A stretch of 64,000 bases of DNA from Candidatus Omnitrophota bacterium (GTDB lineage Bacteria > Omnitrophota > Gorgyraeia > 1-14-0-20-64-10): contig JAHFFE010000004.1 in the NCBI GenBank assembly GCA_023248155.1, positions 4,248-68,247 on the forward strand, given 5' to 3'. Positions 1-64,000 of this stretch are shown piece after piece. Below the pieces are notes generated by a model, which saw nothing but the letters and a program-made list of their open reading frames with translations, was not told the DNA's origin and did no database searches. Position numbers and translations under genes: made by a program. Positions within the stretch are counted from its first letter, which is position 1; every line of letters starts with the position of its first letter.

Positions 1-2
1 CG

Positions 3-3000
3 GACAGCGGCGCGGATCCGGCTTTTGTGATCGGCTATGATGCCGCCGGCCGTCCGGAATCCGTTACGCTCAACCGCTACGAGTTTGTACCGGCTGAGTA
101 TCGTTATGTGCTGCGTCAAAACTCAGTTTTCTCGGTGCAAGGTTCGGAAGGCGCCGACTTGGGTAATGTACCGCTGGCCAATCGCCGCTATCCGCTGCTG
201 GTTCCGTTGATCGTCAACGACACGCTGGCCGCCATTAATGAATTTGATAATACCGGACGCCGTACCCTGACGCATAATTTTACGCTCGATACGACCTCAG
301 GCGGAACATGGGCGGTCAAGCGCAGCGGCCATACGGAATATTTTTATCAGGCCGACAATACCTCGACGGATGAGGATGAGAGTTTCCGTCTGTTGATGAC
401 ACGGCAGCGGCTGGGCGATAACGCCAATCCCGCGCTGAACCGCCTGGGGACGGATACGGTTTTCGGCAAAGACGGCACGCACGGCATTTATTCGATTGCC
501 TATGACGCGGCCGGCGCTGCGGAAGCGCTGAGCATTTTACGCTACCCGGCGGCCGTGGATAATCCCAACACGCCGCAGAATGAAACGCAGGCGGCTTCGC
601 AAGTGTGGCAGTATCAAATTGAAGGCGCTCCGGACAATCCGATTGTCTGCGTCGGCACGACCTGCACAGCGCCCAATTATGCGCTGGTTGAAGACGCGCT
701 CGGCGGCGTCAAAATCGCGGGCGATGACCGGCTGTTCCGCAAGACGGTCAATAACGCCGCCGGCACGGAAGCGCTCTACAATCTCGATTACGACAGTTCC
801 TTTGGCGCCGGCAACGAGAAAATAGTCTCCATGAGTGTCCTTCGTTATGGCGAGCAAACGGTTGCCGGAACGGTCACGCAGACCATTCCCGCGGCCGGCA
901 CCACGGCGGCCGTGACCCAAAATAACGCGGCTGTGACAGGCGGCATCAAGCGCCGGATGAATACCGAGACCTGGATCTATGACGCCATCGACAGACTTAC
1001 CGGAATTGCCCAGCCTGATCCTGTAGCCGAAGAGCCGCTGGGCGGCCGCAAGCTGGACGGTAATGATGTCTTGGCGCGCAAGGTTTTCAATGACAAAGTC
1101 TTTGGCCGCGTCAGCTATGAGATCGGCTATGATGCCGATACCGGCAAAGCCGTGCTTTTGACGCACAACCATTACGCGCTTGCGGATGACGCGGCGACCG
1201 CTGCGATCGATGAGCGGCTGGTGCGCATGTCCAGCGCCGAATACGTTATTACGGATGATAGCCAGCCTGTCGTGCTAGTTCCGGGTGCGCCTCTTATTCC
1301 GACCGGACTGCCTCCGGGCGTGACACAACCGCTGCCGGAGCGTGTCAGCGGCGCAGTTTTCCTCAGCCGTTGGATGGAGTTCGACGACCGCGGCCGCACC
1401 AAGGCCTTTACCACCTTTGCCCGGGACTCGGACCAAAACGATCCTAAGGCGGTCTTCTACTCGGTGTTTGATTATGCCAGCTATAATCCCGCGGATCGCG
1501 TGACCTTCGGTATGAACAGCACAATTCACCAATACAAGGTCAAAGACCAGGCCGATGGATTGGCGGCTGGCACACCGTATCAAAAAATTGCCGGCGACGA
1601 TGAGCTAATCTCCAAAACCGAACTCGATACCACGCCGGGCAACGGCAACGATGAACTCAAAACGTTTACTTACGAAGACCAGGCGGGTACGCCGGTTGTT
1701 GTTACGCGCACGGATTATGAATATAACCTGGACAGTGCCTCCCATCGCCTGTCGCTTAAATCTGCGAAGACGTACCGGATGTTCGGCGCAGCCCAAGTTC
1801 TTTTCCAAAAGACCGAATATGTGGGCGCGCAGCGCCGCCGTGAAAAAGTGAACCGGGTGATTACGTATCGTGCCGATGGTGTCACGGTCAGCCACACATC
1901 CATGTACTCCTATAACCTTGATGGAACACTGAGCAAGGTGACGGAATATTATCCGGACGGCACGCTGCGGTCCGAAACACAATACAAACAAGTCGGCATT
2001 CAATCTTTGGTTTCCAGGCAGATCCGCTATCGCCTGGATGGTTTTGTGGACGTTGCCTCCGATTATGAATATGAAGGCACGGCCATCCGCAAGATCATCC
2101 AGCGTGACCGCATGGGCCGCATTCTGGCCATCGGAGTCTATGAAGGTTTGGCCGAAGACGAATTGCAGAAAACCCAGACCACCTACGGCCTCGACGGGCA
2201 GGTCAGCGAGATTACGACCTTTTTTTATGACGTCGATAAGGTGCTGATCCGCACCGAAGCCGAATCCGTGACCGGAGTGATTACGACATCCACCTTTGAA
2301 GGTGAACGCCGGCATGAACGCGTCAAGGAAGTCAAGGTCCAGCAGAAAGATTCCATGGGCATGGTGAGTGACGAGACGCTGACCAAGTATATTTACAAGA
2401 CGACAGACAACTCCGGCAATCCGATCCCGTTTGATCTGCAGATGCTGGAGCGGACCGAGACCCGTAACCTTAAATCAACGATTACCACGCTGGCGGGCCC
2501 GATCAATCCTTTGATGCAGATCCAATACTTTACCGGCGCGCGCGGCGAAGAAGTGCTGGATTACGTGAAGCATTTCAGCGTGGATGATGCGGGCCGTGAA
2601 CAGCTTGTCGCCATGGATTTAAAACTTTATCGCAGCCGGAATAACCCGTTCCAAGTCAGCGGCCTAAACTACGGCCTGGATGCCAATCTGGCTTATGACC
2701 GCGCAGCAGATGCGGACTTCCAGGCGCCGCTTGTGGCGGAGTTGAGTTTCGCCTACCGCAATAAGCCTGTGCCGCCCGCAGGCCAGTTTCCGGATCAGCT
2801 TGTGCCGCTGACGCTCGTGGTCTACGACATTGCGCAGGGCCAGCCGCGCCGCCGTCTGGTTAGAAACTTTTATGAAGTCACGGCGGCTCCGATGAATGTT
2901 ACGAACTTCCTGGGCTTTGCCAACGTAAGCGCGGCCAATCTCGGCGAACCGATTACGACTGCGGAGTATACGTATGTCGAGGATGCGCTGAACAAAGTTG

Positions 3001-6000
3001 TGACCTTTGACAAAGCCACGCTGGATGTGCGATCCGTCACGCTTTATTCGGGCTTGCCCGGCAAGGAACGCATCACGTCGGTGACGACTTACAAGCTGCC
3101 GGATTCCAGTTCGGCCACGCATGATTTCCGCACGCGTATGCTGGCCGATATCAATCACGACGGCATTGTAAACAATTACGACGTTTATTTGCTGCAGCAG
3201 TCGATCAACGTGCTGGGTTTTGGGATTCCGGCCTCCGGTACCGGCGTGGCCGTGGGCTTGCGTGATCTGAACGGCGACGGCCGCGTGGATGCCCAGGACG
3301 CCCAGGCGCTGGAACAGGCGGTCAATGCTTTGCGCAGTGTTTCTACCACCAATCTATCGGCACTGCTTTCCGGCGCCGTCATGCAAGTGGATGCCAACGG
3401 CGATGGCGTCGTCGACCAGGCGGAATTAAATGCTTATGGCACAGCGGTACGCAATTATGTAGACGTGGATTTCAGCGGCAGTGTGGGGGCGGGGGATATT
3501 CAAATGATCCAGCGCGCCATGCTGGCCCTGTCGAATTTCGATTCCGACGGCGACAGCGTCAGCGATCTGGCCGAAACCTTTGCCGGCACGGATCCACTCA
3601 GCCCGGTCAGCGGCCCGGATACGGATGGGGACACGATCCCGGATACGGTTGAAATGTCGCTTGGTTCTAACCCGTATGACAGCGCGGATACGCCCGCGAC
3701 CATGATCGATTCGGACCGCGACAGCCGCAGTGACGCCTATGAAAATGCGGCACATACGGACCCCAACGACGCGTTGGAATATCCGGGCAATGCGATTGAT
3801 TCCGATTTTGACGGCTATTCCGATAATGTGGAAACGCGTTATGCGCATACAAGTCCGCGCGATAACTCGGATTTCCCCGGAACCAGCGTCGATACGGACG
3901 GCGACGGCTATAGCGATTCTTATGAACGTCTGACCGGAACGCGTTTTGACGCGGGCGGGGCAAGTGATAATCTGGGCTCGGCAAGTTATCGTGATCAAGA
4001 TGTGGACGGCTTCAGCGATCTTTATGAAAAATTCAGGGGCACGGATTTCAAAGATGCCCGGGATACGCCTGAAGTTTCGACCGACACGGATGCCGACGGC
4101 ATCAGCGACGCTTTTGAATTAAGACTGGGCTCGAATCCGTTCAACGCTTCCGACCTGCCCAATGCGGCCTGGACCGGACCTGCGATCGATGCGGATTCCG
4201 ACGGTCTCAGTGACGCCCTCGAATTATTTGCCGGCTCCAATCCCTTTGATTCGCGGGATATTCCGGATTTGGCGACTTACCGGCCGGTACGGGATACGGA
4301 TCTGGACGGCGTAAGCGACAGCCTTGAACTTCACTATCACGTGAATCCCTATGATGCGTTGGACACGCTCAACTCCGCACGCACGGGGATGGCCAATCCC
4401 GCATTGCAGGATCCGGACGGAGATTTGTTATCCAGCAGTCTTGAACTTTTTATCGGGATCAACCCCAATGATTCCGCGGATCAAGCTGCGGGTGATTTGT
4501 GGGTGCTGGGGATGTCCGGCGCCGGGGTGATCCAATACACGTTAGAAAGCGCGGAAGGTCAATCCATCTATGATCTGTATCGCACGATTCTCGGCCGCGA
4601 TCCCAAAAAAGGCGAGTTGATCCGCGATCTTGTCGATCTCCAGTCCGGTAAAATCACTTTGGAAAGCTTGAAAACGCAGATGCTCTCCTCGGAAGAATAT
4701 GCCGAAACGCGCAGTCTGATGGCACGTGTTACCCACGCGGTCAGCGAAACCCTGCAGGCCTATACGGGCATGCAGCGCGCCGAACAGATTGCTTTTGCGG
4801 CCGGCTTCGGCATTTCTGCCGCCATGGCCGCCAGCCTGAATTTAGATTCGGTTTCTGCGATTGTCAGTTACCTGACGCAGCAAAGCCTGCACTTTGGCGT
4901 CAGCGCGTTTACGGCACTGACATTCATGTTTGAAAAACACGGCGCTGAGGAGTTGGCCTATGACGAATTGGCGCGCCGTGCGCTGCTGACGGATATTTTG
5001 GCCGGCGTCCTTAGGCCCGAAACCCAGGGCGAATTGGTCTTGTCCGCGTTTGCCCTTCAAAAAATAGCCGAACAGGCGGGCTTGAAACTGGCCGGACGGC
5101 AGGCGGCGTTTGAAGACCTTTCGCGATTTAACCTGCCGGCCATCATTCATTTGGACGGCGATCACTTTGCGGTGCTTGAGACTGTGAACGGCGAAACGGT
5201 AGCCATCCGTGAATATACCGGCGATTTGTTTGAACTTTCCAAAACTGAATTCCGCAAGCATTGGGATGGTTTCATCATGGCTCCGCAGAGTGCCTCTGAA
5301 CAAGGCCTGTTGGATGACGCAGCGCTCAAGCTGATCCGCGGGGCGGACATGGTTTTCCGTCTCTATCCTATGACGGATGCCGATGGCGACGGACTTAGCG
5401 ACAGCCTGGAAACCGCGTTGAAAGCGGCAGGCTATGACGTCGATCCCAACCGCGCGGATAATAAAAATATCATTGATTTTGATTTGGACGGTGACGGCGT
5501 TTCAGACCGCGATGAATTGCAGCTGGGAACCAACCCGCATGACGCCGCGGACAAACCCAAGGCCGATCTTTCCGGCCCCGAAACCGACGCCGATGGCGAC
5601 GGCTTCAGCGATAAACTCGAACTAGCGCTTGGAACCAGCCCGTCGCAGGCAGCGGATAAACCCAATGCCTCCAGGACACGGCCCGCCGTCGATCAGGATG
5701 CCGACGGCACAAGCGATATCCGCGAATTGGAACTGGGAACCGATCCGGCCGACGCGTTCAGCCGGCCGTCAATGGACAGTGACGGCGACGGCAGCAGCGA
5801 TGCGGCAGAAAAGACAGCCGGAACCAATGTCTATGACCCGGCAGATTTTACGGGCAGTAGTTCGTGGAGGGATTCGGACGGCGACGGTATTTCTGATTCG
5901 CGTGAAAAACTGGAAGGCACCGGCCCGAATGACGGGGCGGATTATACCGGCGGTCCGAATACGCGTGATTCTGACAATGACGGCTTCAGCGACCGCTATG

Positions 6001-60000: not shown

Positions 60001-63000
60001 GGAACATCAAGGAAAGCAGCGCGCTGCCGGGAACTTATGCGGAAGTGGACGGCCGTATTTACCAGATTGAAGCGGATGCCCAAAACCGCTGGGTTTTCAG
60101 CGACGTGTATCTGTCCGGCGTGGCTTTCACGAGCACAGCCGACGGCAAGAGCGTGACGATTCATGAGCATGTTTACGATATCAGCGCTGCAGCGGGTAAG
60201 GTTTCTCTGAAGGAGCAGCCGCGCTCCTATCCGGTGAAGGAAGATCACGTCATTCTGAACAGCCGCATTTACAAGGTGCAGATCGTGCGCGATATCCTGG
60301 GGCTGGAACGCGCCTGGCTGTCGGACGGCACGAACCTGATGGTCTCCGGCGAATTTAAAGATGCGGATGCGGTCAGCGGCGAAAACAAACAGGCGCGCGC
60401 CGAAGTCGTCATTGACGGTAAAACCTTCCTGGTTTCGATTGAGCGCGATCCGTCTATTTACAGCACTTTGTCGGATGAATTCCTGATTGTGAAACAGATT
60501 AAGCCCGCGCCGGCGCAGGGCGGCGGCACGAGCGGTATGGAAGGCTATGAAAGCGGGGACGGCGATCAGGACATTTTTGAGGAGTTAGGGCTGAACGACA
60601 TGCCCGGCGGCGGAGGGTCCGAAATTCCCGATTGGCAGCAAGAACAACAATGGCAATTTGAAAATCCGGCGATTGCGCAAACGTCTACGCCGCAAATTAC
60701 GGAAGTCCTCAAAACGGATGGCAACGAACGCTGGGTACGCATCCGCGCCCGGGTTTGGAAGTCGGGGGCTGCTGCGGTCAGTCTGGACGCGCCCCGTATT
60801 CAATCGAGCGCCGCTGAACGTCTAAGCGTCAACGGACAGGATGTTTTTGCAATTCAGGAACCGGCTGAAACCAGCGGCCGGCCAGACGGACAGCCGGGCG
60901 CCCAGGGCTATGTGCTCAATCCCAATGCGGGCATGCTGCGGTTTGTGACGCCCACGAAAGTTTTTTGGACGGAAGGGGCCACTTCAAGTGTTTCGTTTGG
61001 AGATGGGATTGTCTACCGCGTGAGCGGCGAGCCGGGAAGCCATGTCACTCTGCGTGAGACCGGTACGGCTTCCATGGCTGTGCAAACCATGCAAATCGAC
61101 GGGCGTTTCTATACGGCTTGGCAGGACCCGGATGATCCCAGCCATGGTTTCCGCTTTAACGACGGGTTTGGCGAATACGCCAGCGTCCGCGATACATTCG
61201 GTTTCTATGAACGCAACGGCGTGCTGACGTCCGCGCCTTCGCGGATGGGCGCGGGCCGTTCCAATCCCGAAGGCATGGCCGCAGCCGACATTCTGCCGCA
61301 AGCGGGCGCGCGCGAATTGGGAGAAAAGTATACGGCCAATGAAATGAATTACCGCATCAACCTGACGGCCGACGGTTTCTACCAGGTGGGCTTGTCGGCC
61401 GCGCTCAGTGACGACATGACGGACGCCATCCGCCGTGCAGGCGCTCTGAAACTGGAACCGGAATATGTTTTTCATGTGTTTCTGGACGGCCACTTCTACG
61501 GCGACTTCTATCTGCAGCCCGGCGAAGATTTCCGCCAGGCGGCCGTGAAACTGCGCCTGACCCCGGGCGAGCATGATTTGAAGATCGTCTGGGATGTGCC
61601 GGAATTTTATCAGCAGAATCAGCTCACGGGCGGTGCGGACCTGCGGGTGCGCCGCGTGTTCGTCATGGCGGACCAGACTTACCAGGCGGATCTCAATGGG
61701 GACGGAGCGGTCAATGATGCGGACGAAGCCCTTTTGACGGCCCGGCTGACACCGGCCGGATTTCAGGCTGAGACTTCGCAGATCACCGGCGCGCCCGAAC
61801 GCGAAGAAGTTGAAGGCGCGGTCAGCCGGCTGGTGGCGGACAATGTGCTGGAAGCCAACGGCATCCGTTACGAAGTTAGCCGCCAAAATGGCAAGTTCAT
61901 GCTGGATAACGGCCGCAAAGTCTATGAGGTGGCGCCCGATGCCGCGCAGGTCAATTTGGATGGTTACGTCTACACCTTGGTGATTGAAAACGGGCGGCTG
62001 ACCGGCATGGTGGAAATCCTGCCGGATGTACGTCCGGTGGATTTGGATGTGATTGAAGCTGCCGGCCGCGTGCTTTCCGTTCAGCAGTCGGCGGACAATC
62101 CGCACGAATACCGCTTCAGCGACGGCACGAATCTATTCCTGAGTTCGGCGGCGAGCATGACGGTTTCACTGTATGGTTTGGTTTACGACATTGAAGAATT
62201 GGGCGGCGGCGGTGTTCATGTCAGCGAAGCGGCGGTTGAACTGGAACGCCCGAGCGATACGGAACTGAACCTCAATGGCACGCGCTATCTGGTGCAGCGC
62301 CTGGGTGATGGATCGTATGTGTTCTCCGAACCCGTGGAGTTTGAAGATTCTGCGATCCGTGACGGACTGGAACAAGTCGAGATTGGCGATGTGAATTATT
62401 TTGTGGTGCGGGATCAAACAAACCGCATCCAACTGCTTAAAGAAGTCCCGGAAACCAGCCGGCTTCTAGCCCAGACGGTGGTTTTCATTGGCGGGACGAG
62501 CTATGCCGTCACGCCGGATGCGGATCATGCCGGCGAATGGATTTTCCGCAGCCCTGCGGCGCAGTCGGCCACACAGAATCGTGAAATCACTCTGAGCGGC
62601 AAGAAATACCGCGTTGATCTGGATCCGGCAAGCAGCGTCTTGACGGTCGCGCCGGTCAGCTTCGGCAGTCTGGATGTGGATAAGAACGGTCTTGCTGACG
62701 CGCAGGATTTTGCGGCCATTCAGAGCCGCTTTAATGCGCAAATTGTGACAAAAGATCCGCAGCAAGCGCAGCAGCTCGGGGCGCAGGTTGATTTTTGGTG
62801 GACCCGCATTGCCGCGGCCGCAGGCACGGAGTACGGGGACTATGGCTTTACGTATACGTTTGATGCGCCGTCGGCCGGTGATTTTATGCTGGGTCTGAAG
62901 ACGGCCATGCTGCCGGTGTCCGGCGCGCCGGTTCAGTTTGATCATTTTGATTTCGACGTTTTTGTGGATGGGTCCGCCGTACGCGCTGGAATTCTGCGCG

Positions 63001-63998
63001 CCGATGCGTCCAGCGGTTATGTCACCCATGAAATGCCGGTAACCCTTGCGGCCGGCACGCATCAATTCCGGTTTGTCTGGTCCAATCCCGTGCCGCGCGT
63101 CAGTTTTGGCGTGCAGTCCGCCAGCTTGCGTGACAGCGATTACCTGGCTGCAGCGGATCTGAATCAGGACCGGCGCATTGATGAAAAAGACCAGGCTCTG
63201 TTCCTGGATCAGACCGGCTCAAGCGCCTGGACCCAGGCCCTTGCGATTGGCGCCAAAACCTACACGCTTTACCGCCGTCCGTCCGGCGCCATGCGGCTGG
63301 TGGATGCGGCCGGTACGGTGATTCCGAGCGACGATCAGGGCCGGTTCTTTGTGGTGAGCGGCAAGAAATACTGGATTTCGGGCGCTAAAGATTCGGCGGT
63401 CACGCTGGTGGCCGATCATGCGGCAGATCTCAATAAAGACGGTTTGATCAATGAAGCCGATGATGCTTTTCTGGCCGCTGCTCTGGCCGCGCATCAAGTG
63501 GACACCTTTGCCGAATTGCAGGAATTTGAAGCCTATGAAAAAGCCTCGGATACCGGCGCCAGCATTCATGGCCTTGTTTCGAAAGGAACCAATGCCAGCG
63601 GCGAAGGCGCCATGGGCTTCATGATGGGCTTTGGCGGGGGCGAAGAAGGCAGCCTGATGGCCAACGGCCCCTCGATCAGCTTTGATGAGACTTTGGCGGA
63701 GGCGGGCGATTACCGTATCGGCCTCTCCGCCCGCAGTTTCAGCCACGAGTTTCTGCCGGCCTGGCAGGGCTGGCAGGTGACCGGCGGTTCCAGCAGCGCG
63801 TTTACGCCCGAAGGCGCAATTTCCGTGCAGCCGGGTAATCACTGGTCGAATATGCAAAGCTGGATTGAAATCAATGGTTTGAATTTTGCCGCGGACAACC
63901 GCACGGTCCTGCTGCTGAATATGTTGACCGATGCCGGCAGTTCGGGCCGCGTCTACTTCAAGCGCACGGGCGATACCGCCTGGGATGAAGAACGCAGC
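3..63998 (+). CDS. Internal fragment of one giant ORF (at least 21,332 codons; start and stop both outside the window) encoding a multi-repeat, probably extracellular Ca2+-binding mega-protein
   Basis: Frame +3 was read codon by codon from nt 3 to 63998 and no TAA, TAG or TGA was seen. The ORF track lists + strand ORFs only in frames 1 and 2, which fits a frame 3 that never closes inside the window. The translation carries coherent, recognisable protein repeat families along its whole length. Minus-strand track ORFs translate to Arg/Ala/Gly-rich low-complexity text. Confidence 0.9.
1590..2330 (+). repeat. YD/RHS-like repeat region (e.g. YEYNLDSASHRLS, YSYNLDGTLSKVTEYYPDGTL, IRYRLDGFVDVASDYEYEGTAIRKI, TTYGLDGQVSEITTFFYD)
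   Basis: Recurrent Y-x-Y-x-L-D-G/x-x-L ... Y-x-D-G-T-L spacing resembling the RHS/YD repeat consensus; assigned by eye only. Confidence 0.35.
3130..3540 (+). repeat. Four dockerin/EF-hand-type Ca2+ loops (DINHDGIVNNYD, DLNGDGRVDAQD, DANGDGVVDQAE, DFSGSVGAGD)
   Basis: 12-residue loops matching the EF-hand/dockerin type I pattern D-x-N/D-x-D-G-x-I/V-D/N-x-x-D/E, each followed by a short amphipathic stretch. Confidence 0.6.
3540..4470 (+). repeat. Thrombospondin type-3 (TSP3)-like calcium-binding repeat array A (about 10 units: DSDGDSVSDLAETFAGTDPLSP, DTDGDGYSDSYERLTGT, DTDADGISDAFELRLGSNPFNASDLP, DADSDGLSDALELFAGSNPFDSRDIP ...)
   Basis: Tandem D-x-D-x-D-G-x-S-D-x-x-E-x-x-x-G-T/S-N/D-P units typical of bacterial TSP3-type repeats. 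Confidence 0.6.
4555..4715 (+). other. DUF4214-like motif (IYDLYRTILGRDPKKGELIRDLVDLQSGKITLESLKTQMLSSEEYAE)
   Basis: Matches the Y-x-x-x-L-G-R-x-P-D-x-x-G ... L-x-x-G ... S-x-E-F/Y pattern characteristic of DUF4214. Confidence 0.5.
4860..5290 (+). other. Peptidase C39-like (bacteriocin-processing cysteine peptidase fold) domain, probably degenerate: His and Asp motifs conserved, canonical Cys position occupied by Phe
   Basis: QQSLHFGVSAFTALTFMFEKHG aligns to the C39 Q...dCGvaaLamilk..yG block with F in place of C. LPAIIHLDGDHFAVLETVNGETVAIREYTGD...SKTEFRKHWDGFIMAP aligns to the C39 lPaIah..nHfVVl...vyiaDP...s.eeF...WtG block. Confidence 0.55.
5350..6760 (+). repeat. TSP3-like calcium-binding repeat array B (about 20 or more units, e.g. 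DADGDGLSDSLETAL, DLDGDGVSDRDELQLGTNPHDAADKP, DADGDGFSDKLELALGTSPSQAADKP, DSDGDGISDSREKLEGTGPNDGADYTG ...)
   Basis: Uninterrupted tandem D-x-D-G-D-G-x-S-D-x-x-E-x-x-x-G-T-x-P units. The underlying DNA repeats gacggcgacggc many times. Confidence 0.65.
6780..8870 (+). other. Ala-rich (Ala/Glu/Leu/Ser) predicted alpha-helical spacer with three tandem ~60-aa repeats at about 7190-7800 (unit ...KPGSDATE.V.A.AKE.V.DLAELIPGFD...IE.QF.KLA..R.DA.AAAAA)
   Basis: Translation is low in Gly/Pro and rich in Ala. The repeated unit is visible as AKAREAAFNLAELIPGFDAKMIEAQFEKLAKIRADAIAAAAAM / AKELVADLAKLIPGFDVERIEIEFDNLEEARANAAS / AKEAVLDLAELIPNAPTENIEAQFKKLATVRKDAMAAAAAA. Confidence 0.5.
8880..9010 (+). repeat. 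Two TSP3-like units ([41 protein letters not shown])
   Basis: Same D-x-D-G-D-G-x-S/G-D-x-x-E motif as arrays A and B. Confidence 0.55.
9070..16120 (+). repeat. Mega-array of roughly 70 dockerin/EF-hand-type Ca2+ loops arranged as paired loop-helix units (tandem dockerin-like modules)
   Basis: About 7 kb of consecutive loops such as ADVNGDGVINRDDLEMIEDIRKRLVDMNDDGKVDSTDIERFREVL, DVNGDGSIDGIDIRRIEMLV, DVDGDGTVDLADYERLKQLV, DVNGDGVTDISDVEKLDQLL. Loop spacing of about 22-35 aa mirrors the duplicated segment of type I dockerins. Confidence 0.65.
16160..16500 (+). other. CBM6/CBM35-like beta-sandwich module 1 (FAFTAGDHQTLYSS...YEVGLSAQTHNNLTPPAGYQYRFDAYVDNVYQGRIEIP...LDLEPGRHNLRLVWTNKEAGTNVEIKEIFAR)
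   Basis: Signature Y-x-F-x-V...G-x-Y-x-V-G-L ... P-x-G-Y-x-F ... V-D-G ... L-x-L-x-x-G-x-H-x-L-x-L-x-W-x-N ... V-x-I as in galactose-binding-like CBM6/35 modules; assigned by eye. Confidence 0.45.
16500..17790 (+). repeat. Dockerin/EF-hand-type Ca2+ loop array
   Basis: DVNGDGWFHLDD, DLNRDGVVNRAD, DMDGNGRITSRD, DVDQNGIVDDKD, DINHDGRVDHLD, DLNKNGFIDSED, DLNDDGRIDTRD, DINGDGVMDVID, DKDGDGEVTAAD. Confidence 0.6.
17830..18290 (+). other. Concanavalin-A-like (DUF1080/LamG-type) domain 1
   Basis: GIFAVQSNAQTEAWSEAGAADWRDIALGADLEFRSYSRQAGFRFRVQNDRNYYSVMLAGDRLILEAVRNNVRS...YYLEVSAMGTELHVRLNGRDMLTATDDSFAAGKIALQSTDSYVKFSNLAL. The W...G...DF-x-L...G-F-x-F-R...Y-Y...G...L...G...h-x-V-x-L-N-G...G-x-I-x-L-Q ... 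V-x-F-x-N-h pattern is typical of the DUF1080 family. Confidence 0.5.
18290..19650 (+). repeat. Dockerin/EF-hand-type Ca2+ loop array
   Basis: DLTGDGIVNSAD, NLDGNVDAAD, DFDGDTQLELED, DGDGNGLMDGRD, DFNKNGRVDDAD, DVNQDGIINDKD, DLTGDGLIDMRD, DLNNDHQVDIAD, DLDGDGVFAASD. Confidence 0.6.
19680..19970 (+). other. CBM6/CBM35-like beta-sandwich module 2 (YRFEITESGLYDVGVSLKAYDKVVAAGYEYPVDVYVDGEKKGEIRVAGSSVEFNSASLKLELPKGPHLVKFVTRTPSADNHKIQMHEAFARA)
   Basis: Same signature as module 1. Confidence 0.45.
20320..20820 (+). other. Concanavalin-A-like (DUF1080-type) domain 2
   Basis: WKTAGVETQVRLGGAGTAERSAGVILRVQDENNFVRVRIVRTGASRDALRVEKITNGAVTLLLPEVLLGAEVLTDPFYGLKVELGADTLKVFVNGALKAEKTGLGEPVQGRLALFAANTEASFDSLSV. 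Confidence 0.45.
20820..21720 (+). repeat. Dockerin/EF-hand-type Ca2+ loop array
   Basis: DLDKDGKLTASD, DINADGRLNTED, DLNRDGLAGNLD, DVNQDGVVNYVD, DINGDASVDELD, DINADGVGDKDG, DLSGDGKVDDKD. Confidence 0.55.
21790..22790 (+). other. Two tandem concanavalin-A-like (DUF1080-type) domains 3 and 4
   Basis: Domain 3: TTGWSFDTTGSWRRIAGQLVQ...NFNLSVNFRFDGTSGQPGRGGFIFRLDPVTGDHYDILVDGGVFTLRKFTGGKYQNLATHAIQADEDFHTLVLRAHEDKIEAVLDGSEILFKIQDGDLERGGLQMFTGRGTIGRFESVRVDNV. Domain 4: SVEDFVLEADLTLDG...GRQAGVLFASAADGSGYRLNFRPDSGKIELYRLQDSQAERLGYGVIPVSGWDKPYHLEIKRSGGLIRVFVNHMELISVDDRVLGGGTLSFFSENQTGLAAANVQLRKM. Confidence 0.5.
22800..23770 (+). repeat. Dockerin/EF-hand-type Ca2+ loop array
   Basis: DLTGDGTVNGTD, DYNGDKILDERD, DVNGDLALTPQD, DIDQDGFVDAQD, NINQDKSGAVNQAD, DVNGSGLTDQTD, DINRDGTIDAAD, DVDENGVVNHDD, DLNGDGSVDGFD. 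Confidence 0.6.
23830..24125 (+). other. CBM6/CBM35-like beta-sandwich module 3 (WIEFPLAIANRGTYDVGLDVINFEKFDLPAGYHYHFEVEINGAHAGDIYLPAS...LTLKLDPANYKVRFKWVNDDGRPETGVRIRTMFA)
   Basis: Same signature as module 1. Confidence 0.45.
24500..25130 (+). other. Unique non-repetitive segment of unknown function (YYTKQGEFAKSDVNKPLQANQPSDINYGLDFNNMLVNLTDKWDKIEKTEDNTKEDAGIYHIFELLALGDVTTIMAVRMLDLDLNEMVRDQVLYSADANFDSVQGIAAALEATQNRDYFLLTTAADLELTPMLLKMLDTNRDG...)
   Basis: No similarity to the repeat families seen elsewhere in the window; Lys/Glu/Leu-rich, probably helical. Confidence 0.3.
25200..26060 (+). repeat. TSP3-like calcium-binding repeat array C (about 13 units; DLDGDGLQGLIDPDSDNDGFSDGEELARGFDP, DSDGDGIADISDAN, DADHDGFSDGWETARGTNPLDAASRP, DSDGDGLTDAAESALGTS, DTDGDGFSDNEEKLLNTNPMDRDSKP ...), plus one more unit at about 26285-26380
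   Basis: Same motif as arrays A and B. Confidence 0.6.
26060..26560 (+). repeat. Dockerin/EF-hand-type Ca2+ loops
   Basis: SLDGILNERD, DLNGDALLDAKD, DIDGSGTVNELD, DFNGDQLYDQED. Confidence 0.5.
26640..26990 (+). other. CBM6/CBM35-like beta-sandwich module 4 (YDVETFGGLYQVGLSARSFDAINLPQSGYYEFDVFVDGASRGTVTMRASNLQYNTETIELNLGAGIHNIEFRWTNNGAY...ILPSVQIKDIVLR)
   Basis: Same signature as module 1. Confidence 0.45.
27550..29010 (+). other. Divergent or partial CBM-like start (IDYRFDVPTAGDYEIGLRALNGAGIAEGYQFKLNMFVDGEFTETLQVDAGD) followed by a unique ~400-aa non-repetitive domain of unknown function, ending ...TRDVRFVWANPVSANAELVLKKAFLR
   Basis: Longest stretch in the window with no detectable internal repeat; contains W/Y-rich segments (YLEYWNDAGNAPVPQNAELWSRQYYDDGLPWMGVGIAGG). 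Confidence 0.35.
29440..35490 (+). repeat. Eight consecutive ~750-800 nt super-repeats. Each is a CBM6/35-like module (starting near 29445, 30210, 30975, 31725, 32468, 33258, 34060, 35160), then a Ca2+ loop, then 2-3 Y-containing beta-hairpins (e.g. LSVNGVAYTARRTPEGALAFRKNL, LEVGGKRYEVEKLANGRFLFFDTA, VDLAGAKYAVIKLPGDLYELRPYA), then another Ca2+ loop.
   Basis: Modules: YEMDISERGDYALGLSYQRD...LALPMGPGRHRIQIFGSE; LTYEFTLDDERDYLAGALVGV...LDPGTYQLRVRWLNS; YAFDVPQAGRYVFGASGG...LTQGSNNITLRWINK; YSVTVPEAGWYEIELDGG...LNQGRNLLDFDWTNS; YEFNVETDGWYDAALVYRN...LTAGRHRVQYEWINE; YRFDVPATGYYDLGLVIQS...LEKGLRDLQFALENP; FDFTADQADTYAVGLSLRD...MAAGDHTIKFRWANP; YFYADFAPVTGGARYDIQINGA...LPLAAHKLRLVWTNP. Confidence 0.55.
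35680..36195 (+). other. Concanavalin-A-like (DUF1080-type) domain 5
   Basis: WTSAGQFAPLSGSWQYDGLRMKS...NFDLEGRLQWDWSTGAAKAGFYVRYLDANNLLKVELDRTSGRLALISIAAGKSREISTVTLEDGIDFGHIYDLKIAARGDVYTVLLDGVEQLHARVEGPASGAAAIFADDAAINFDGLTLTSY. Confidence 0.5.
36250..38400 (+). repeat. Beta-hairpin repeat block A: about 25 copies of a ~25-aa unit h-x-h-D/N-G-x-x-Y-x-h-x-x-x-x-x-G-x-h-x-L (family unassigned)
   Basis: VTLDGRVFRLQDGRPA, LLETRDTLYDVERSEAGVYTFTD, VSVQGVVYQVNAIENNQFRLTQ, VSLNGIVFTVRSENGIIRIVRP, IHAAGGWYEVTYDAGADRYHFAR, VVLDGRLYEIRVLDPAGHIRLLA, VLLNNRLFEIKKQGSQFILTN, VTVTDIAYDITTDAAGSVILRQ, VTLDGVTYEISHDPLTRDLVLER. Confidence 0.55.
38400..39280 (+). repeat. Dockerin/EF-hand-type Ca2+ loop array
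   Basis: DITGDGLMDGRD, DITQDGKVDRAD, DVNADGSVNKQD, DLDGSGAVDEGD, NMNNGDVDRDGFVTEKD. Confidence 0.55.
39285..39575 (+). other. CBM6/CBM35-like beta-sandwich module (VTYTFAVTEPGDYFTGLALRPVPGEFFDPSFVYRIEVSVDGQFKNFIDIPA...LHFADQEPGTHEISFKFVNIDARMSVEVGSVYL)
   Basis: Same signature as module 1. Confidence 0.45.
39590..40100 (+). repeat. Dockerin/EF-hand-type Ca2+ loops
   Basis: DVNEDGRVWVDD, DRNGDKLLSQAD, DYDRDGEVTRTKD, DGQRDGRIDSKD, DLTDDGHVGPED. Confidence 0.5.
40100..44340 (+). repeat. Beta-hairpin repeat block B (about 45 copies), with a short dockerin-like insert at about 43180-43520
   Basis: VRFDNTYYAVRRGADGQFILWT, AVINGVRYAIDQDVVTGRYLFEP, MRLDGEDFAVTLNELTGAYRWAS, VRIHGAAYKIRIADAQSRQIFLER, VTLDGTAYKIAVQDTARSLVRLEA, IFVNGHYYTVAIDEATGRVTLDD, IHLDGVTYSLSVSDYGAKILLEQ, VVLDGLRYEIKPYDALRYELVRG, VTLKGVRYAIENLADGTFALVSP. 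Confidence 0.55.
44400..45300 (+). repeat. Dockerin/EF-hand-type Ca2+ loop array
   Basis: DVNKDGILDKKD, DINRDGRPATED, DVNQDNVLDPND, DLDGDGGGNEKD, DLNQDGVLTASD, DLNRDHVVNGRD, DYNKDGRISNED. Confidence 0.55.
45320..45600 (+). other. CBM6/CBM35-like beta-sandwich module (ILFEAVEAVQDGRYLVGLDLLASAPATVRFEVRVDGVKAAVITADAEAGALVRGTAAIELDKGVHKIEFVRLDRPDAALDLEVHKFAI)
   Basis: Same signature as module 1. Confidence 0.4.
45600..46200 (+). repeat. Dockerin/EF-hand-type Ca2+ loops
   Basis: DINSDGILDQND, DLNRDGRVDSAD, DINRSGATTPDD, DVNEDGFVDLAD, DLNADGVIDGRD. Confidence 0.55.
46230..46850 (+). other. Concanavalin-A-like (DUF1080-type) domain 6, interrupted by a Gly/Ala linker (TGAAGAGSGAGAAGMP)
   Basis: VEDGQLWVAREELETFDSAQLADFKIENGLFRVQAG...SDFTVSTDILFTGKNAGDSVAQQTAGLSFRALDAEEYYDVVVNRSTRSLELRKL...YFNLAVEARGTSFKVFVNGTFAFEGTHALFGQGLTGLTSQGVEAYFDNFSVQTF. 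Confidence 0.5.
46850..49760 (+). repeat. Dockerin/EF-hand-type Ca2+ loop array (about 30 loops)
   Basis: DLNADGRVDAFD, DVNADGRINAAD, DVSGNGILDAAD, DVNGDGLWNRLD, DINGDRRISLQD, DMDANGKVNPTD, DQNRDGRLDDKD, DTTGDGIIDSAD, DINGDGRRLAAD, NFDGEVDERD, DLTGDGRVTAAD, DFNGDGKITGF, DRNGDGYVNQVD, DINGDKRIDEGD. Confidence 0.6.
50480..51350 (+). repeat. Dockerin/EF-hand-type Ca2+ loop array inserted within hairpin block C
   Basis: DFDLNRNGTIDADE, DINGDGLVNGID, DVDGDTLVDQTD, DQNQNGAFTSDD, DFNRDDKLSAED, DLNGDGNVNAKD, DVNGDGYVNPQD, DINNDGVVNYSD, DIDGDLIKDAKD. Confidence 0.55.
56770..57040 (+). other. Cysteine-containing insert with three closely spaced Cys pairs or knuckles (FGGSVGACSNEECESQDIL ... WIQPCGEKCIQEFVELPDGKGGFVKFELYYSNKYYDEP) in an otherwise nearly Cys-free protein
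   Basis: In-frame tgc/tgt codons: ACSNEEC (C-x4-C) and PCGEKC (C-x3-C). Other Cys I noticed in the window are also paired: CVGTTC (about nt 645-665) and CAGAMC (about nt 59630-59650). One lone Cys in FCDAEE (about nt 25955). Confidence 0.45.
60490..60620 (+). other. Gly-rich acidic flexible linker (PAQGGGTSGMEGYESGDGDQDIFEELGLNDMPGGGGSEIPDW)
   Basis: Low-complexity Gly/Asp/Glu composition between hairpin block C and the C-terminal (in window) CBM-like region. Confidence 0.5.
61350..61665 (+). other. CBM6/CBM35-like beta-sandwich module (MNYRINLTADGFYQVGLSAALSDD...EPEYVFHVFLDGHFYGDFYLQPGEDFRQAAVKLRLTPGEHDLKIVWDVPEF...LRVRRVFVMA)
   Basis: Same signature as module 1. Confidence 0.45.
62840..63135 (+). 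other. CBM6/CBM35-like beta-sandwich module (YGFTYTFDAPSAGDFMLGLKTAMLPVSGAPVQFDHFDFDVFVDGSAVRAGILRADASSGYVTHEMPVTLAAGTHQFRFVWSNPVPRVSFGVQSASLR)
   Basis: Same signature as module 1. Confidence 0.45.
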
Positions 63999-64000
63999 GT
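63670..64000 (+). other. Start of a further CBM6/35-like module, truncated by the window edge (ISFDETLAEAGDYRIGLSARSFSHEFLPAWQGWQV...)
   Basis: Begins with the same x-F-x-x-x-x-x-x-A-G-D-Y-x-I-G-L-S-A-R-S-F signature; the ORF continues past nt 64000. Confidence 0.35.

What the first reader, a model, noticed from the sequence alone, without database searches (positions are those of the whole stretch)
1..64000. A single ORF runs through the whole 64 kb window with no start or stop: a giant gene of more than 21,000 codons
Frame +3 was read end to end and no stop codon was seen. The ORF track independently shows that no frame-3 ORF ever opens or closes inside the window, while frames 1 and 2 are chopped into short junk ORFs. 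The translation is coherent modular protein sequence throughout. A real gene longer than 64 kb would be among the largest prokaryotic genes known; tens-of-kb genes of this kind have been reported, for example in Chlorobium chlorochromatii and in Omnitrophota. Proteins of this class are usually cell-surface or extracellular fibres used in adhesion, epibiosis or predation.
Basis: seen in the sequence. Interest (0 to 1): 0.9.

Follow-up and report, generated by a model that had tools for sequence, protein, structure and literature searches.

The report
Internal piece of giant dockerin-type gene
The whole 64 kb window is the middle of one real gene of more than 21,000 codons for a huge, acidic, calcium-binding surface protein of the "dockerin-type giant protein" kind already described in Omnitrophota bacteria, so it is striking in size but belongs to a known class.

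Summary
Frame +3 has no stop codon in 64,000 nt (21,332 codons). The other frames have 157-1,077 stops, and the chance probability is about 1e-348.

The ORF is a real gene fragment:
- It has a strong codon-position signal.
- It has no long DNA repeats.
- At least 31 stretches match the Pfam dockerin model, about 107-184 EF-hand-type calcium loops are present, and there are 34 bacterial TSP3 repeat cores.
- It carries a C39-like domain whose catalytic Cys is replaced by Ser.
- It carries a DUF1080 lectin-like domain.
- It carries 19 domains modelled as CBM6/35-like.
- It carries 63 copies of a 56-residue beta unit that is absent from Pfam.
- It has no transmembrane helices.

Independent contigs carry collinear homologues at 25-53% identity. 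Every one that carries a source name comes from an Omnitrophota MAG, apart from one MAG labelled Planctomycetia. In one ortholog the coding continues at least 5,400 residues past the window end, after a 4-nt ORF overlap with a frame change.

This architecture matches the "Dockerin-type giant proteins" of West-Roberts et al. 2023. It is therefore a new member of a known kind. The probable role is a calcium-stiffened, glycan-binding attachment fibre, which is inferred and not shown. Both gene termini lie outside the window.

The parts
3..63998 (+). One uninterrupted reading frame of 21,332 codons. Neither the start nor the stop lies inside the window.
   Evidence: There are 0 stops in frame +3 against 157-1,077 in the other frames. 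Codon-position GC is 0.64/0.41/0.68 and P(no stop) is about 1e-348. Collinear homologues exist on independent contigs.
3..2957 (+). aa 1-985: beta-rich region with YD-like motifs (my own reading of the sequence) and no recognised domain.
   Evidence: There are no hits in Pfam, NCBIfam or PDB sequences. The word-based search found no homologue. The relative P0039 has an unannotated repeat region in the same position, upstream of its dockerin/TSP3/C39 block.
3144..3527 (+). aa 1048-1175: first cluster of dockerin/EF-hand calcium loops.
   Evidence: Sequence read, motif map. It aligns with P0039 aa 1655-1889 at 30% identity.
3534..4502 (+). aa 1178-1500: bacterial thrombospondin type 3 (TSP3) repeat array 1.
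   Evidence: Pfam TSP3_bac E=2.1e-61 for aa 1-5000. DxDxDGxxDxxE cores are mapped.
4860..5312 (+). aa 1620-1770: peptidase C39-like domain with Ser1634 in place of the catalytic Cys, His1721 kept, and Glu1737 at the Asp position.
   Evidence: Pfam Peptidase_C39 E=2e-12, covering profile positions 45-131 only. NCBIfam gives weak hits to the N-terminal domains of T1SS/bacteriocin ABC exporters. The best PDB match is 3b79. The alignment with relative P0039, which keeps Q..CG..H..D, is. There is no Cys between aa 221 and 8653.
5370..6752 (+). aa 1790-2250: TSP3 repeat array 2.
6753..8882 (+). aa 2251-2960: Ala-rich region with divergent internal repeats; the helical character is my reading of the composition.
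   Evidence: A = 21% of residues 2001-3000. An internal repeat matches at 46% identity. The only DNA-level repeat pair of the window lies here (145 nt, 76% identity). Pfam gives only sub-threshold hits beyond the TSP3 repeats at its start.
9060..15692 (+). aa 3020-5230: long tandem array of dockerin-type loop-helix calcium sites.
   Evidence: Pfam Dockerin_1 E=6e-82 with 12 stretches in aa 1-5000. There are 7-14 loops per 500 aa. Sequence read. Orthologous fragments are P0002 (53% identity), P0024 (52%) and P0001 (41%).
15693..25199 (+). aa 5231-8399: mixed region of dockerin loops plus isolated CBM-like modules (aa 5405-5500, 6562-6655, 7945-8040).
21828..22217 (+). aa 7276-7405: DUF1080 / 3-keto-disaccharide hydrolase-like (concanavalin-like) domain.
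   Evidence: Pfam PF06439 E=6.6e-12, 46.3 bits against a cutoff of 26.8. It is seen again.
25200..26102 (+). aa 8400-8700: TSP3 repeat array 3.
   Evidence: Pfam TSP3_bac E=4.4e-42 with 8 stretches. Core motifs are mapped.
26643..35657 (+). aa 8881-11885: mostly tandem array (interrupted around aa 9280-9625) of a ~255-aa composite module. Each module is a CBM6/35-like jelly roll, an EF loop-helix, a 56-aa beta unit and a second EF loop-helix.
36210..44342 (+). aa 12070-14780: first long run of the 56-aa beta unit.
   Evidence: The HMM built from window copies finds 63 copies in all, lying between aa 9063 and 21135. Pfam and NCBIfam are silent here.
44400..51392 (+). aa 14800-17130: second dockerin-loop region, containing a sub-threshold full-length DUF1080-like domain (aa 15425-15611).
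   Evidence: Pfam results are (PF06439 at 20.2 bits, profile positions 5-186 of 187). Orthologues P0003 (47% identity) and P0023 (42%) carry PF06439.
51393..62642 (+). aa 17131-20880: second long run of the 56-aa beta unit, with three CxxxC/CxxxxC Cys pairs.
61341..63761 (+). aa 20447-21253: last CBM-like/dockerin-loop modules before the window end.
   Evidence: The last 354 aa align at 35% identity with the first ORF of L005, which is followed by a further 5,283-aa ORF.

Best explanation
The window is an internal 64-kb segment of a single, real, giant protein-coding gene. Neither end of the gene is in the window. By its closest relatives the organism is most likely a member of Candidatus Omnitrophota.

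The product is at least 21,332 aa within the window. A homologous locus suggests it is probably more than 26,000 aa. It belongs to the 'Dockerin-type giant protein' class of West-Roberts et al. 2023.

Shown:
- The polypeptide is very acidic (D+E 16.0%, K+R 9.4%) and almost free of Cys.
- It has no transmembrane helix in 21,332 residues.
- It is built from hundreds of calcium-binding loops (dockerin/EF-hand type and TSP3 type).
- These are interspersed with 19 CBM6/35-like jelly rolls, DUF1080 lectin-like domains, 63 copies of a 56-residue beta unit, an Ala-rich region and one C39-like domain whose nucleophile Cys is Ser.

Inferred mechanism:
- After export, calcium loads the loops and stiffens the chain into a very long extracellular fibre.
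- The CBM-like and DUF1080 domains give multivalent binding to glycans on another cell's surface, for attachment to a host or prey, or on polymeric substrates.
- The beta units and dockerin arrays act mainly as spacers or stalk.
- The C39-like domain is more likely a recognition or docking module than a cysteine protease.
- Anchoring and export elements are expected outside the window. In described relatives these are TM segments and SecA-like domains near the C terminus.
For: - The ORF and its coding signal are established.
- No long DNA repeats were found.
- Domain content: Dockerin_1 in at least 31 stretches, TSP3_bac, Peptidase_C39, PF06439 and EF-hand.
- Motif counts: 107 strict or 184 loose EF loops and 34 TSP3 cores, against 0.4 and 0 in shuffles.
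- No KD-window peak typical of a TM helix, and the Cys residues lie almost entirely in close pairs.
- 63 beta units.
- Collinear homologues: P0024 at 52% over window aa 3693-6508; P0002 at 53% over 3003-3738; P0003 at 47% over 15303-16259; P0023 at 42% over 13382-17377; and the 25-30% relatives P0026, P0027, P0028, P0035, P0039, L011 and L006.
- Every relative that carries a source name is a Candidatus Omnitrophica/Omnitrophota protein.
- L011 and L006 are also stop-free across their whole 21-23 kb loci.
- L005 shows 5,283 further residues downstream of the equivalent of the window end, carrying ILEI, DUF1080 and dockerins.
- The class definition comes from 10.1101/2023.11.21.568195, section 'Dockerin-type giant proteins'.
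Against: - The window holds no marker gene, so taxonomy rests only on homologues. One collinear homologue (L006) sits in a MAG labelled Planctomycetia. The window's GC (57.8%) is higher than that of every relative examined (39-55%).
- No signal peptide, anchor, secretion signal or partner cohesin can be seen, because both termini are outside the window.
- No expression or protein evidence exists.
- Carbohydrate binding is inferred from fold similarity of a medium-confidence model (pLDDT 76.6, pTM 0.46). No Pfam CBM model hits.
- In several relatives the homologous locus is cut into consecutive ORFs by single stops or frame changes (L003, L004, L005, L019, L020). Whether the family is always made as one polypeptide is therefore open.
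- TM prediction used only a Kyte-Doolittle window.
Confidence: 0.8

Rival explanations
1. The stop-free frame is an artefact: a chimeric or repeat-expanded assembly, or non-coding sequence that happens to lack stops.
For: The protein is highly repetitive at domain level. West-Roberts et al. report that their three dockerin-type giants could not be completed because of repeats.
Against: The probability of no stop by chance is about 1e-348, and codon-position bias is uniform. Self-BLASTN finds only one 145-nt pair at 76% identity, TRF finds nothing, and the remaining DNA repeats are 32-96 nt at roughly 60-90% identity, all but two families sited on the calcium loops. Paralogous modules are only 20-48% identical as protein. 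Independent assemblies reproduce the segment order over window aa 990-11102 (L003), 11904-17653 (L004), 13210-19396 (L011), 12754-18998 (L006) and 20979-21332 (L005).
Confidence: 0.03
2. It is a cellulosome-like scaffold or cargo system. In this reading the dockerins bind cohesins, so that the giant protein recruits enzymes or is itself recruited onto a scaffoldin, and its main role is polysaccharide degradation rather than cell attachment.
For: Dockerin type I is the dominant Pfam hit. CBM35/6-like folds and DUF1080 are typical companions of glycoside hydrolases. One relative is named 'family 16 glycoside hydrolase' by its source. West-Roberts et al. propose a role in processing cell-surface polymers.
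Against: Pfam found no cohesin domain and no recognisable catalytic glycoside hydrolase, lyase or esterase domain anywhere in the 21,332 residues. The dockerin loops occur as long uninterrupted arrays and as half-sites split by a beta unit, unlike the single C-terminal dockerin of cellulosomal enzymes.
Confidence: 0.12
3. The locus is really a string of several adjacent genes, or a decaying pseudogene family, that happens to be fused into one frame in this genome. The product would then not function as a single polypeptide of more than 21 kaa.
For: Homologous loci in other MAGs are split into consecutive same-strand ORFs. L003 has ORFs of 3026, 3985, 942, 1013 and 14271 aa, and L004, L005, L019 and L020 show single stops or frame changes between ORFs.
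Against: The window has no stop at all in 64 kb. Two other relatives on long contigs are also stop-free over 21-23 kb. The breaks in L004 fall in the middle of continuous homology (window aa 13383 to 13382 and 17377 to 17377). That pattern fits sequencing or assembly frameshifts, or recent lesions, better than ancestral gene boundaries. A frame of this length cannot stay open without selection.
Confidence: 0.05

Closest known systems
Dockerin-type giant proteins of Candidatus Omnitrophota (West-Roberts et al. 2023, bioRxiv 10.1101/2023.11.21.568195). The same architecture is recovered as the PF00404+PF18884 cluster in Nielsen & Lui 2026, bioRxiv 10.64898/2026.06.07.730766.
   Same: Both have many dockerin/EF-hand repeats plus bacterial TSP3 repeats, DUF1080, a C39-like domain and no TM helices over a very long stretch. 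ILEI appears in the downstream part of an ortholog. All named relatives come from Omnitrophota MAGs.
   Different: No discoidin or GNAT domain was found in the window. The C39-like domain lies toward the upstream end of the window and has Ser for Cys, whereas the paper describes C-terminal C39-like domains in one example. Pfam counts at least 31 dockerin stretches here, against 'up to 15 copies' reported in the 2026 catalogue, although the counting methods differ. The 19 CBM6/35-like domains and the 63 beta units are not mentioned in the sections of those papers that I read. The C-terminal TM and SecA-like part cannot be checked.
Archaeovorin-type giant proteins of Omnitrophota (Velamenicoccus archaeovorus and relatives)
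   Same: They are giant genes of the same phylum, with a proposed role in contact with other cells, and some carry C39-like domains.
   Different: By definition Archaeovorins lack dockerin domains, and they carry numerous TM regions and SecA DEAD domains. The window has many dockerins, no TM helix and no SecA domain.
Clostridial cellulosome components (type I dockerin, cohesin scaffoldins, CBM-bearing enzymes)
   Same: Both have the type I dockerin calcium-binding loop-helix motif. The CBM35 of a C. thermocellum dockerin protein (2wz8) is among the best structural matches.
   Different: The window has no cohesin and no catalytic module. Its dockerin motifs occur in arrays of dozens rather than one per protein, and the protein is orders of magnitude larger.
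Giant calcium-dependent adhesins of Gram-negative bacteria exported by type I secretion (the LapA, SiiE and MpIBP class; from my own knowledge), and the 36,805-aa protein of Chlorobium chlorochromatii
   Different: Pfam found no RTX nonapeptide repeats, Big/BIg domains, VCBS repeats or haemagglutinin repeats in the window. Calcium sites here are of the EF-hand/dockerin and TSP3 types. The secretion route is unknown.

Membership tests
Dockerin-type giant protein (West-Roberts et al. 2023) | Multiple dockerin / EF-hand repeats | tested here: met
   Pfam Dockerin_1 E down to 6e-82, with at least 31 stretches. There are 107 strict loops against 0.4 in shuffles.
Dockerin-type giant protein (West-Roberts et al. 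2023) | Bacterial thrombospondin type 3 repeats | tested here: met
   TSP3_bac E=2.1e-61 and 5.1e-32 and 4.4e-42. There are 34 core motifs.
Dockerin-type giant protein (West-Roberts et al. 2023) | Size: at least 10,000 aa ('large') or at least 30,000 aa ('giant') | tested here: inconclusive
   The window alone gives at least 21,332 aa, so the 'large' threshold is met. The 30,000-aa threshold is not shown. In ortholog L005 the coding continues at least 5,400 aa past the window end, after a frame change. Both termini are unknown.
Dockerin-type giant protein (West-Roberts et al. 2023) | Glycan-related accessory domains (DUF1080, ILEI, discoidin, GNAT) | tested here: inconclusive
   DUF1080/PF06439 is present above the curated cutoff. 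ILEI is seen only in the downstream ORF of ortholog L005. Discoidin and GNAT were not found in the window.
Dockerin-type giant protein (West-Roberts et al. 2023) | No TM helices over most of the N-terminal part | tested here: met
   Over 21,332 aa the Kyte-Doolittle 19-residue window gives only three marginal Ala-rich peaks of 1.62-1.71. The method is crude.
Dockerin-type giant protein (West-Roberts et al. 2023) | C-terminal TM anchor followed by SecA-related domains | not testable with these tools
   The C terminus lies outside the window. The source contig was not found in any collection. The downstream ortholog fragment P0033 ends at its contig edge and shows only one moderately hydrophobic segment.
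Dockerin-type giant protein (West-Roberts et al. 2023) | Encoded in an Omnitrophota genome | tested here: inconclusive
   The window has no marker gene. All named homologues are Omnitrophica/Omnitrophota proteins, and the closest are 47-53% identical. One 25%-identity homologue is in a MAG labelled Planctomycetia.
Archaeovorin-type giant protein | Absence of dockerins; numerous TM regions; SecA DEAD domain | tested here: not met
   Dockerins are abundant, and there is no TM helix and no SecA domain in the window.
Peptidase family C39 (active bacteriocin-processing cysteine peptidase) | Catalytic Cys and His (plus Asp) in the conserved motifs | tested here: not met
   The Pfam match covers profile positions 45-131 only. 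In the alignment with relative P0039, which has CG...H...D, the window has Ser1634, His1721 and Glu1737. There is no Cys within thousands of residues.
Carbohydrate-binding modules CBM6/CBM35 | Beta-jelly-roll fold of the family | tested here: met
Carbohydrate-binding modules CBM6/CBM35 | Sequence membership and conserved ligand or calcium-binding residues | tested here: inconclusive
   No Pfam CBM model hit any tile. Binding residues were not examined. Ligand binding cannot be tested with these tools.
Cellulosome (dockerin-cohesin) system | Cohesin partner and catalytic modules | tested here: not met
   Pfam found no cohesin and no glycoside hydrolase domain in the window. The rest of the genome was not available.
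RTX / type I-secreted giant adhesins | RTX nonapeptide repeats and C-terminal T1SS signal | tested here: inconclusive
   No RTX (HemolysinCabind) hit occurs in the window. The C terminus, where these elements would lie, is outside the window.

The most novel reading that the evidence does not exclude
This dockerin-type giant gene may be one member of a conserved, collinear orthologous family, rather than a one-off, sequence-unique giant. The family spans divergent Omnitrophota (25-53% identity, GC 39-58%) and possibly Planctomycetota. It is built in part from two elements not yet in Pfam. The first is a 56-residue beta unit present 63 times in the window and 8-29 times in relatives, with no convincing match in the PDB. 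The second is a ~255-residue composite module in which a CBM6/35-like jelly roll is followed by two dockerin half-sites split by that beta unit. If the source contig is intact, this could be the first dockerin-type giant readable end to end, since the three published examples of at least 30 kaa were all incomplete.
Probability: 0.45. Interest if true: 0.55.

Novelty: new member of a known kind. Interest (0 to 1): 0.42.

Why it matters
Giant genes test the limits of transcription, translation, export and folding. In Omnitrophota they are thought to mediate attachment to, and attack on, other cells.

The dockerin-type class is the least well resolved. West-Roberts et al. had three examples of at least 30 kaa, and all three were broken by assembly. 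An unbroken 64-kb stretch with no DNA-level repeats gives several things:
- A clean template for the class.
- Evidence that the segment order is conserved among distant relatives.
- Defined modules that could be expressed and tested for calcium and glycan binding: the CBM-like jelly roll, the 56-aa beta unit and the Ser-variant C39-like domain.

It does not change the current picture. It adds a well-behaved member and some new domain definitions.

Tried and rejected
**Finding the source contig and the gene ends.** All attempts failed.
- The search for homologous proteins with aa 1-1200 found nothing.
- A chimeric query made of the first 250 and last 250 aa found nothing in genome contigs or in metagenome contigs.
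- The source is therefore absent from these collections, or masked in them.

**Walking downstream** from the ortholog fragment P0033 (its C-terminal 1,083 aa) found no homologue.

**A blind spot in the word-based search.** It returned only proteins shorter than 1,000 aa and missed P0024, which is 52% identical over the query. The exhaustive HMMER search was needed to find the long relatives.

Its list of relatives is therefore incomplete. It also shows only 10 kb either side of each match, so the termini of the long-contig relatives L011 and L006 could not be read.

**Libraries that gave nothing.**
- PDB sequence searches of aa 1-1000 and of the DUF1080 region found nothing.
- NCBIfam found nothing in the N-terminal, Ala-rich or beta-unit regions.

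**Readings I rejected.**
- RHS/YD-repeat toxin for aa 1-985: the YD-like motifs are visible by eye, but there is no Pfam or NCBIfam support.
- Real antisense genes in frame -3: the two largest have no Pfam hit and all lie in the shadow frame.
- RNA genes or tRNAs in the window: none found.

**dN/dS** against the orthologs was not attempted, because 41-53% protein identity implies saturated synonymous sites.
Full report
**1. Observation**

Frame +3 of the window (nt 3-63998) contains no TAA, TAG or TGA in 21,332 codons. The other five frames contain 157 to 1,077 stops, and frames +1 and +2 never stay open for more than 927 and 390 nt. From base composition about 786 stops would be expected, so the probability of none is about 1e-348. 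With no stop of any kind, the frame is open under any genetic code.

The frame carries a clear coding signature. GC at codon positions 1/2/3 is 0.64/0.41/0.68, G occupies 42% of first positions, and GC3 is even (0.63-0.70) along the whole window. The only other long ORFs (up to 946 aa) all lie in antisense frame -3, and the two largest have no Pfam match. I treat them as shadow ORFs. No tRNA gene or Rfam family is present.

**2. Assembly artefact?**

- At DNA level the window is essentially free of repeats. Self-BLASTN finds one 145-nt pair at 76% identity. Tandem Repeats Finder finds nothing. The seed-based repeat finder reports only 32-96 nt families at roughly 60-90% identity, and all but two of those families coincide with the calcium-binding loop motif.
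- The protein is repetitive only at domain level, with paralogous modules 20-48% identical.
- Independent assemblies from other samples reproduce the segment order:

| Locus | Window aa covered |
|---|---|
| L003 | 990-11102 |
| L004 | 11904-17653 |
| L011 | 13210-19396 |
| L006 | 12754-18998 |
| L005 | 20979-21332 |

A chimera or an expanded repeat is therefore very unlikely, although read-level evidence from the source sample was not available.

**3. What the protein is made of** (aa numbering in frame +3; nt = 3+(aa-1)x3)

*Composition.* The protein is Ala, Asp, Leu and Gly-rich. D+E number 3,415 against 2,006 K+R. There are only 9 Cys, and 8 of them lie in CxxxC or CxxxxC pairs. A Kyte-Doolittle scan finds no convincing TM helix in 21,332 residues.

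*Pfam hits.* Pfam recognises Dockerin_1 (at least 31 stretches), EF-hand families, TSP3_bac, one Peptidase_C39 and PF06439 (DUF1080 / 3-keto-disaccharide hydrolase). Everything else is unannotated. Motif counting gives 107 strict or 184 loose EF-hand/dockerin loops and 34 TSP3 cores, against 0.4 and 0 in shuffled sequence.

*Order of regions.*

| aa | Content |
|---|---|
| 1-985 | Unannotated beta-rich region |
| 1048-1175 | Dockerin loops |
| 1178-1500 | TSP3 array 1 |
| 1620-1770 | C39-like domain |
| 1790-2250 | TSP3 array 2 |
| 2251-2960 | Ala-rich repeats |
| 3020-5230 | Near-continuous array of dockerin loop-helix sites |
| 5231-8399 | Dockerin loops with isolated CBM-like modules; DUF1080 at 7276-7405 |
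| 8400-8700 | TSP3 array 3 |
| 8881-11885 | Mostly tandem ~255-aa composite modules |
| 12070-14780 | Run of beta units |
| 14800-17130 | Dockerin loops, with a sub-threshold full-length DUF1080-like domain at 15425-15611 |
| 17131-20880 | Second run of beta units |
| 20447-21253 | Final composite modules |

**4. The unannotated modules**

*Composite module.* I aligned 14 paralogous copies and used them as the alignment for AlphaFold2 (pLDDT 76.6, pTM 0.46).
- This is followed by an EF loop plus helix, a 7-stranded beta unit, and a second EF loop plus helix.
- An HMM of the jelly roll finds 19 copies in the window.

*Beta unit.* An HMM of the beta unit (56 match positions, made of two similar halves of pattern h-x-h-x-G-x-x-Y-x-V...G-x-h-x-F) finds 63 copies between aa 9063 and 21135.
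- A second model of four tandem units (pLDDT 77.6) shows four separate beta-strand units (mostly seven strands each) joined by low-confidence linkers.
- Foldseek finds only local similarity to beta-propeller blades, at TM about 0.12-0.19 among the matches at E below 0.001.
- Whether the units are beads on a string or close into a larger fold is not resolved. No Pfam or NCBIfam model covers them.

**5. The C39-like domain**

- Pfam matches only profile positions 45-131.
- NCBIfam gives weak matches to the N-terminal peptidase or peptidase-like domains of bacteriocin and type I secretion ABC exporters.
- The only PDB sequence match is 3b79.
- I aligned it with the homologous domain of relative P0039, which keeps the Q...CG...H...D pattern. 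The window has Ser1634 at the Cys position, His1721, and Glu1737 at the Asp position.
- No Cys lies between aa 221 and 8653.

It therefore fails the defining feature of an active C39 cysteine peptidase. A docking or recognition role, or a Ser-based activity, are both possible and cannot be separated here.

**6. Relatives and origin**

The source contig was not found in any searchable collection. The word-based protein search returned only short fragments. The best were P0001 and several proteins labelled 'Candidatus Omnitrophica bacterium'. The exhaustive HMMER search with aa 15200-16399 found 110 proteins, many of them thousands of residues long.

BLASTP and BLASTX show the long ones to be collinear with the window:

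| Relative | Identity | Window aa |
|---|---|---|
| P0024 | 52% | 3693-6508 |
| P0002 | 53% | 3003-3738 |
| P0003 | 47% | 15303-16259 |
| P0023 | 42% | 13382-17377 |
| P0001 | 41% | 4701-5606 |
| P0026, P0027, P0028, P0025, P0029, P0037 | ~25% | fragments falling within 12761-19092 |
| P0035 | 23-29% | 4839-8156 |
| P0039 | 25-30% | 986-4531, including the C39 region |

- Every relative that carries a source name is a protein of a Candidatus Omnitrophica/Omnitrophota MAG, and most are marked partial and fill or nearly fill their contig.
- A genome scan added two more loci. L011 is on a 192-kb contig of an Omnitrophica MAG. L006 is on a 229-kb contig of a MAG labelled Planctomycetia. Both are stop-free over the entire 21-23 kb that could be read.
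- The window's GC (57.8%) exceeds that of all these relatives (39-55%).

I conclude that the organism is most likely an Omnitrophota lineage without a close sequenced relative. No marker gene supports this directly.

**7. Beyond the window**

The first 1,032 nt of L005 match the last 354 residues of the window at 35% identity. L005 comes from the same MAG series as P0024, judging by the shared HYZ84 locus-tag prefix. That ORF runs on for about 180 more residues. After a 4-nt overlap with a frame change, it is followed by the 5,283-aa ORF P0033, which reaches the contig end. P0033 carries ILEI, DUF1080 and dockerin domains and a long low-complexity C-terminal tail that I read as helical, with one moderately hydrophobic segment.

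P0039 extends about 670 residues further upstream than the window start, and it has no start codon of its own. The full gene is therefore likely to exceed 26,000-27,000 codons. This is an inference from homologues and is not shown for this genome.

In several relatives the locus is cut into consecutive same-strand ORFs by single stops or frame changes (L003, L004, L005, L019, L020). In L004 the breaks fall inside continuous homology, which suggests sequence errors or recent lesions rather than ancestral gene boundaries.

**8. Comparison with what is known**

West-Roberts et al. (bioRxiv 10.1101/2023.11.21.568195) define 'Dockerin-type giant proteins' of Omnitrophota by these features:
- dockerin/EF-hand repeats and bacterial TSP3 repeats;
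- DUF1080, ILEI, discoidin and GNAT domains;
- a C39-like domain in one case;
- no TM helices over most of the N-terminal part;
- TM plus SecA-like domains near complete C termini.

They had three examples of at least 30 kaa, and all three were incomplete. Nielsen & Lui (bioRxiv 10.64898/2026.06.07.730766) report 3,650 proteins of at least 10 kaa and a maximum of 147,155 aa. They also report a 17-protein dockerin+TSP3 architecture cluster and up to 15 dockerin copies per protein.

The window meets every feature of the dockerin-type class that can be tested inside it. The exceptions are discoidin and GNAT, which are not present, and the 30 kaa threshold, which is not shown. It does not fit four other groups:
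- Archaeovorins, because dockerins are present and TM and SecA elements are absent.
- Cellulosome components, because there is no cohesin and no catalytic module.
- RTX adhesins, because there are no RTX repeats in the window.
- Active C39 peptidases, because the Cys is absent.

I file it as a new member of a known kind.

**9. Likely mechanism** (inferred unless marked as shown)

Shown: the chain is extremely acidic, nearly Cys-free and lacks TM segments. It carries 140-220 predicted calcium sites and about 20 lectin-like or CBM-like domains.

Inferred:
- After export, calcium binding orders the dockerin and TSP3 loops and stiffens the chain.
- The CBM-like and DUF1080 domains give multivalent, low-affinity glycan binding that sums to strong attachment to the envelope of a host or prey cell, or to polymers.
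- The beta units and dockerin arrays act as stalk.
- Anchoring and export functions lie in the unseen termini.

This agrees with the attachment role proposed in the literature for this class. The main rival is a cellulosome-like enzyme-recruiting scaffold. It is weakened by the absence of cohesins and catalytic domains in 21,332 residues.

**10. Verdict**

The phenomenon is already described, so the surprise to a specialist is moderate.

The value of the window lies in four points:
- It is an unbroken, repeat-free 64-kb stretch of the least well assembled class.
- It shows that the class forms a collinear family across distant genomes.
- It defines new modules: the 56-aa beta unit and the composite of a CBM-like domain with a split dockerin.
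- It shows the Ser variant of the C39-like domain.

Interest 0.42.

Noticed in passing
window 53865-56705 (-), 51237-53420 (-) and 12 other minus-strand ORFs of 260-587 aa: Antisense frame -3 has only 157 stops and holds ORFs up to 946 aa. All lie in the same shadow frame opposite the giant ORF, and the two largest have no Pfam hit.
   Followed up: partly
window aa 216/221, 18932/18937, 19005/19009, 19877/19882 (nt about 648-665, 56796-56813, 57015-57029, 59631-59648): Eight of the nine Cys residues in 21,332 aa occur as CxxxC or CxxxxC pairs, which suggests small disulfide or metal-binding loops. The ninth (aa 8653) is alone.
   Followed up: no
window aa ~20170-20215 and ~21190-21215 (nt ~60510-60650 and ~63570-63650); similar inserts in relatives P0023 and P0033: Short Gly/Glu/Asp/Met/Tyr-rich low-complexity inserts, such as 'GEGAMGFMMGFGGGEEGS' and 'MEGYESGDGDQDIFEEL...GGGGSE', interrupt modules. 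Relatives carry comparable 'GDYYGDGFGSSDYDGEYDGSGY' inserts at other places.
   Followed up: no
L003 (JADGBR010000015.1), L004 (JGI Ga0558120_18200), L005 (JACPXL010000010.1), L019, L020: In related MAG contigs the homologous locus is split into consecutive same-strand ORFs by single in-frame stops, 4-nt overlaps or frame changes. L003 has ORFs of 3026, 3985, 942, 1013 and 14271 aa that fill a 69.9-kb contig. Whether these are errors, decay or real multi-ORF organisation is not known.
   Followed up: partly
L006 (CAYPCX010000002.1, 229-kb contig): A collinear homologue that is stop-free over the 23-kb locus sits in a MAG labelled 'uncultured Planctomycetia bacterium' (GC 55%). The family may therefore reach beyond Omnitrophota, or the bin label may be wrong.
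   Followed up: no
whole window versus relatives: The window's GC (57.8%, GC3 68%) is well above that of every relative examined (39-55%). Its closest relatives reach only 47-53% protein identity, so the source lineage appears to be unsampled in the collections searched.
   Followed up: partly
tool behaviour: The word-indexed protein search returned only proteins shorter than 1,000 aa. It missed P0024 (2,796 aa, 52% identical across the whole query), which the exhaustive HMMER search later found. Negative results from the word-based tool for giant proteins should not be trusted.
   Followed up: yes
window aa 11900-12065 (nt ~35700-36200): A segment reading 'WDWSTGAAKAGFYVRYLDANNLLKVELDRTSGRLALISIAAGK...YDLKIAARGDVYTVLLDG' looks to me like a further concanavalin/LamG-like domain, but it gave no Pfam hit at E<=0.05.
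   Followed up: partly
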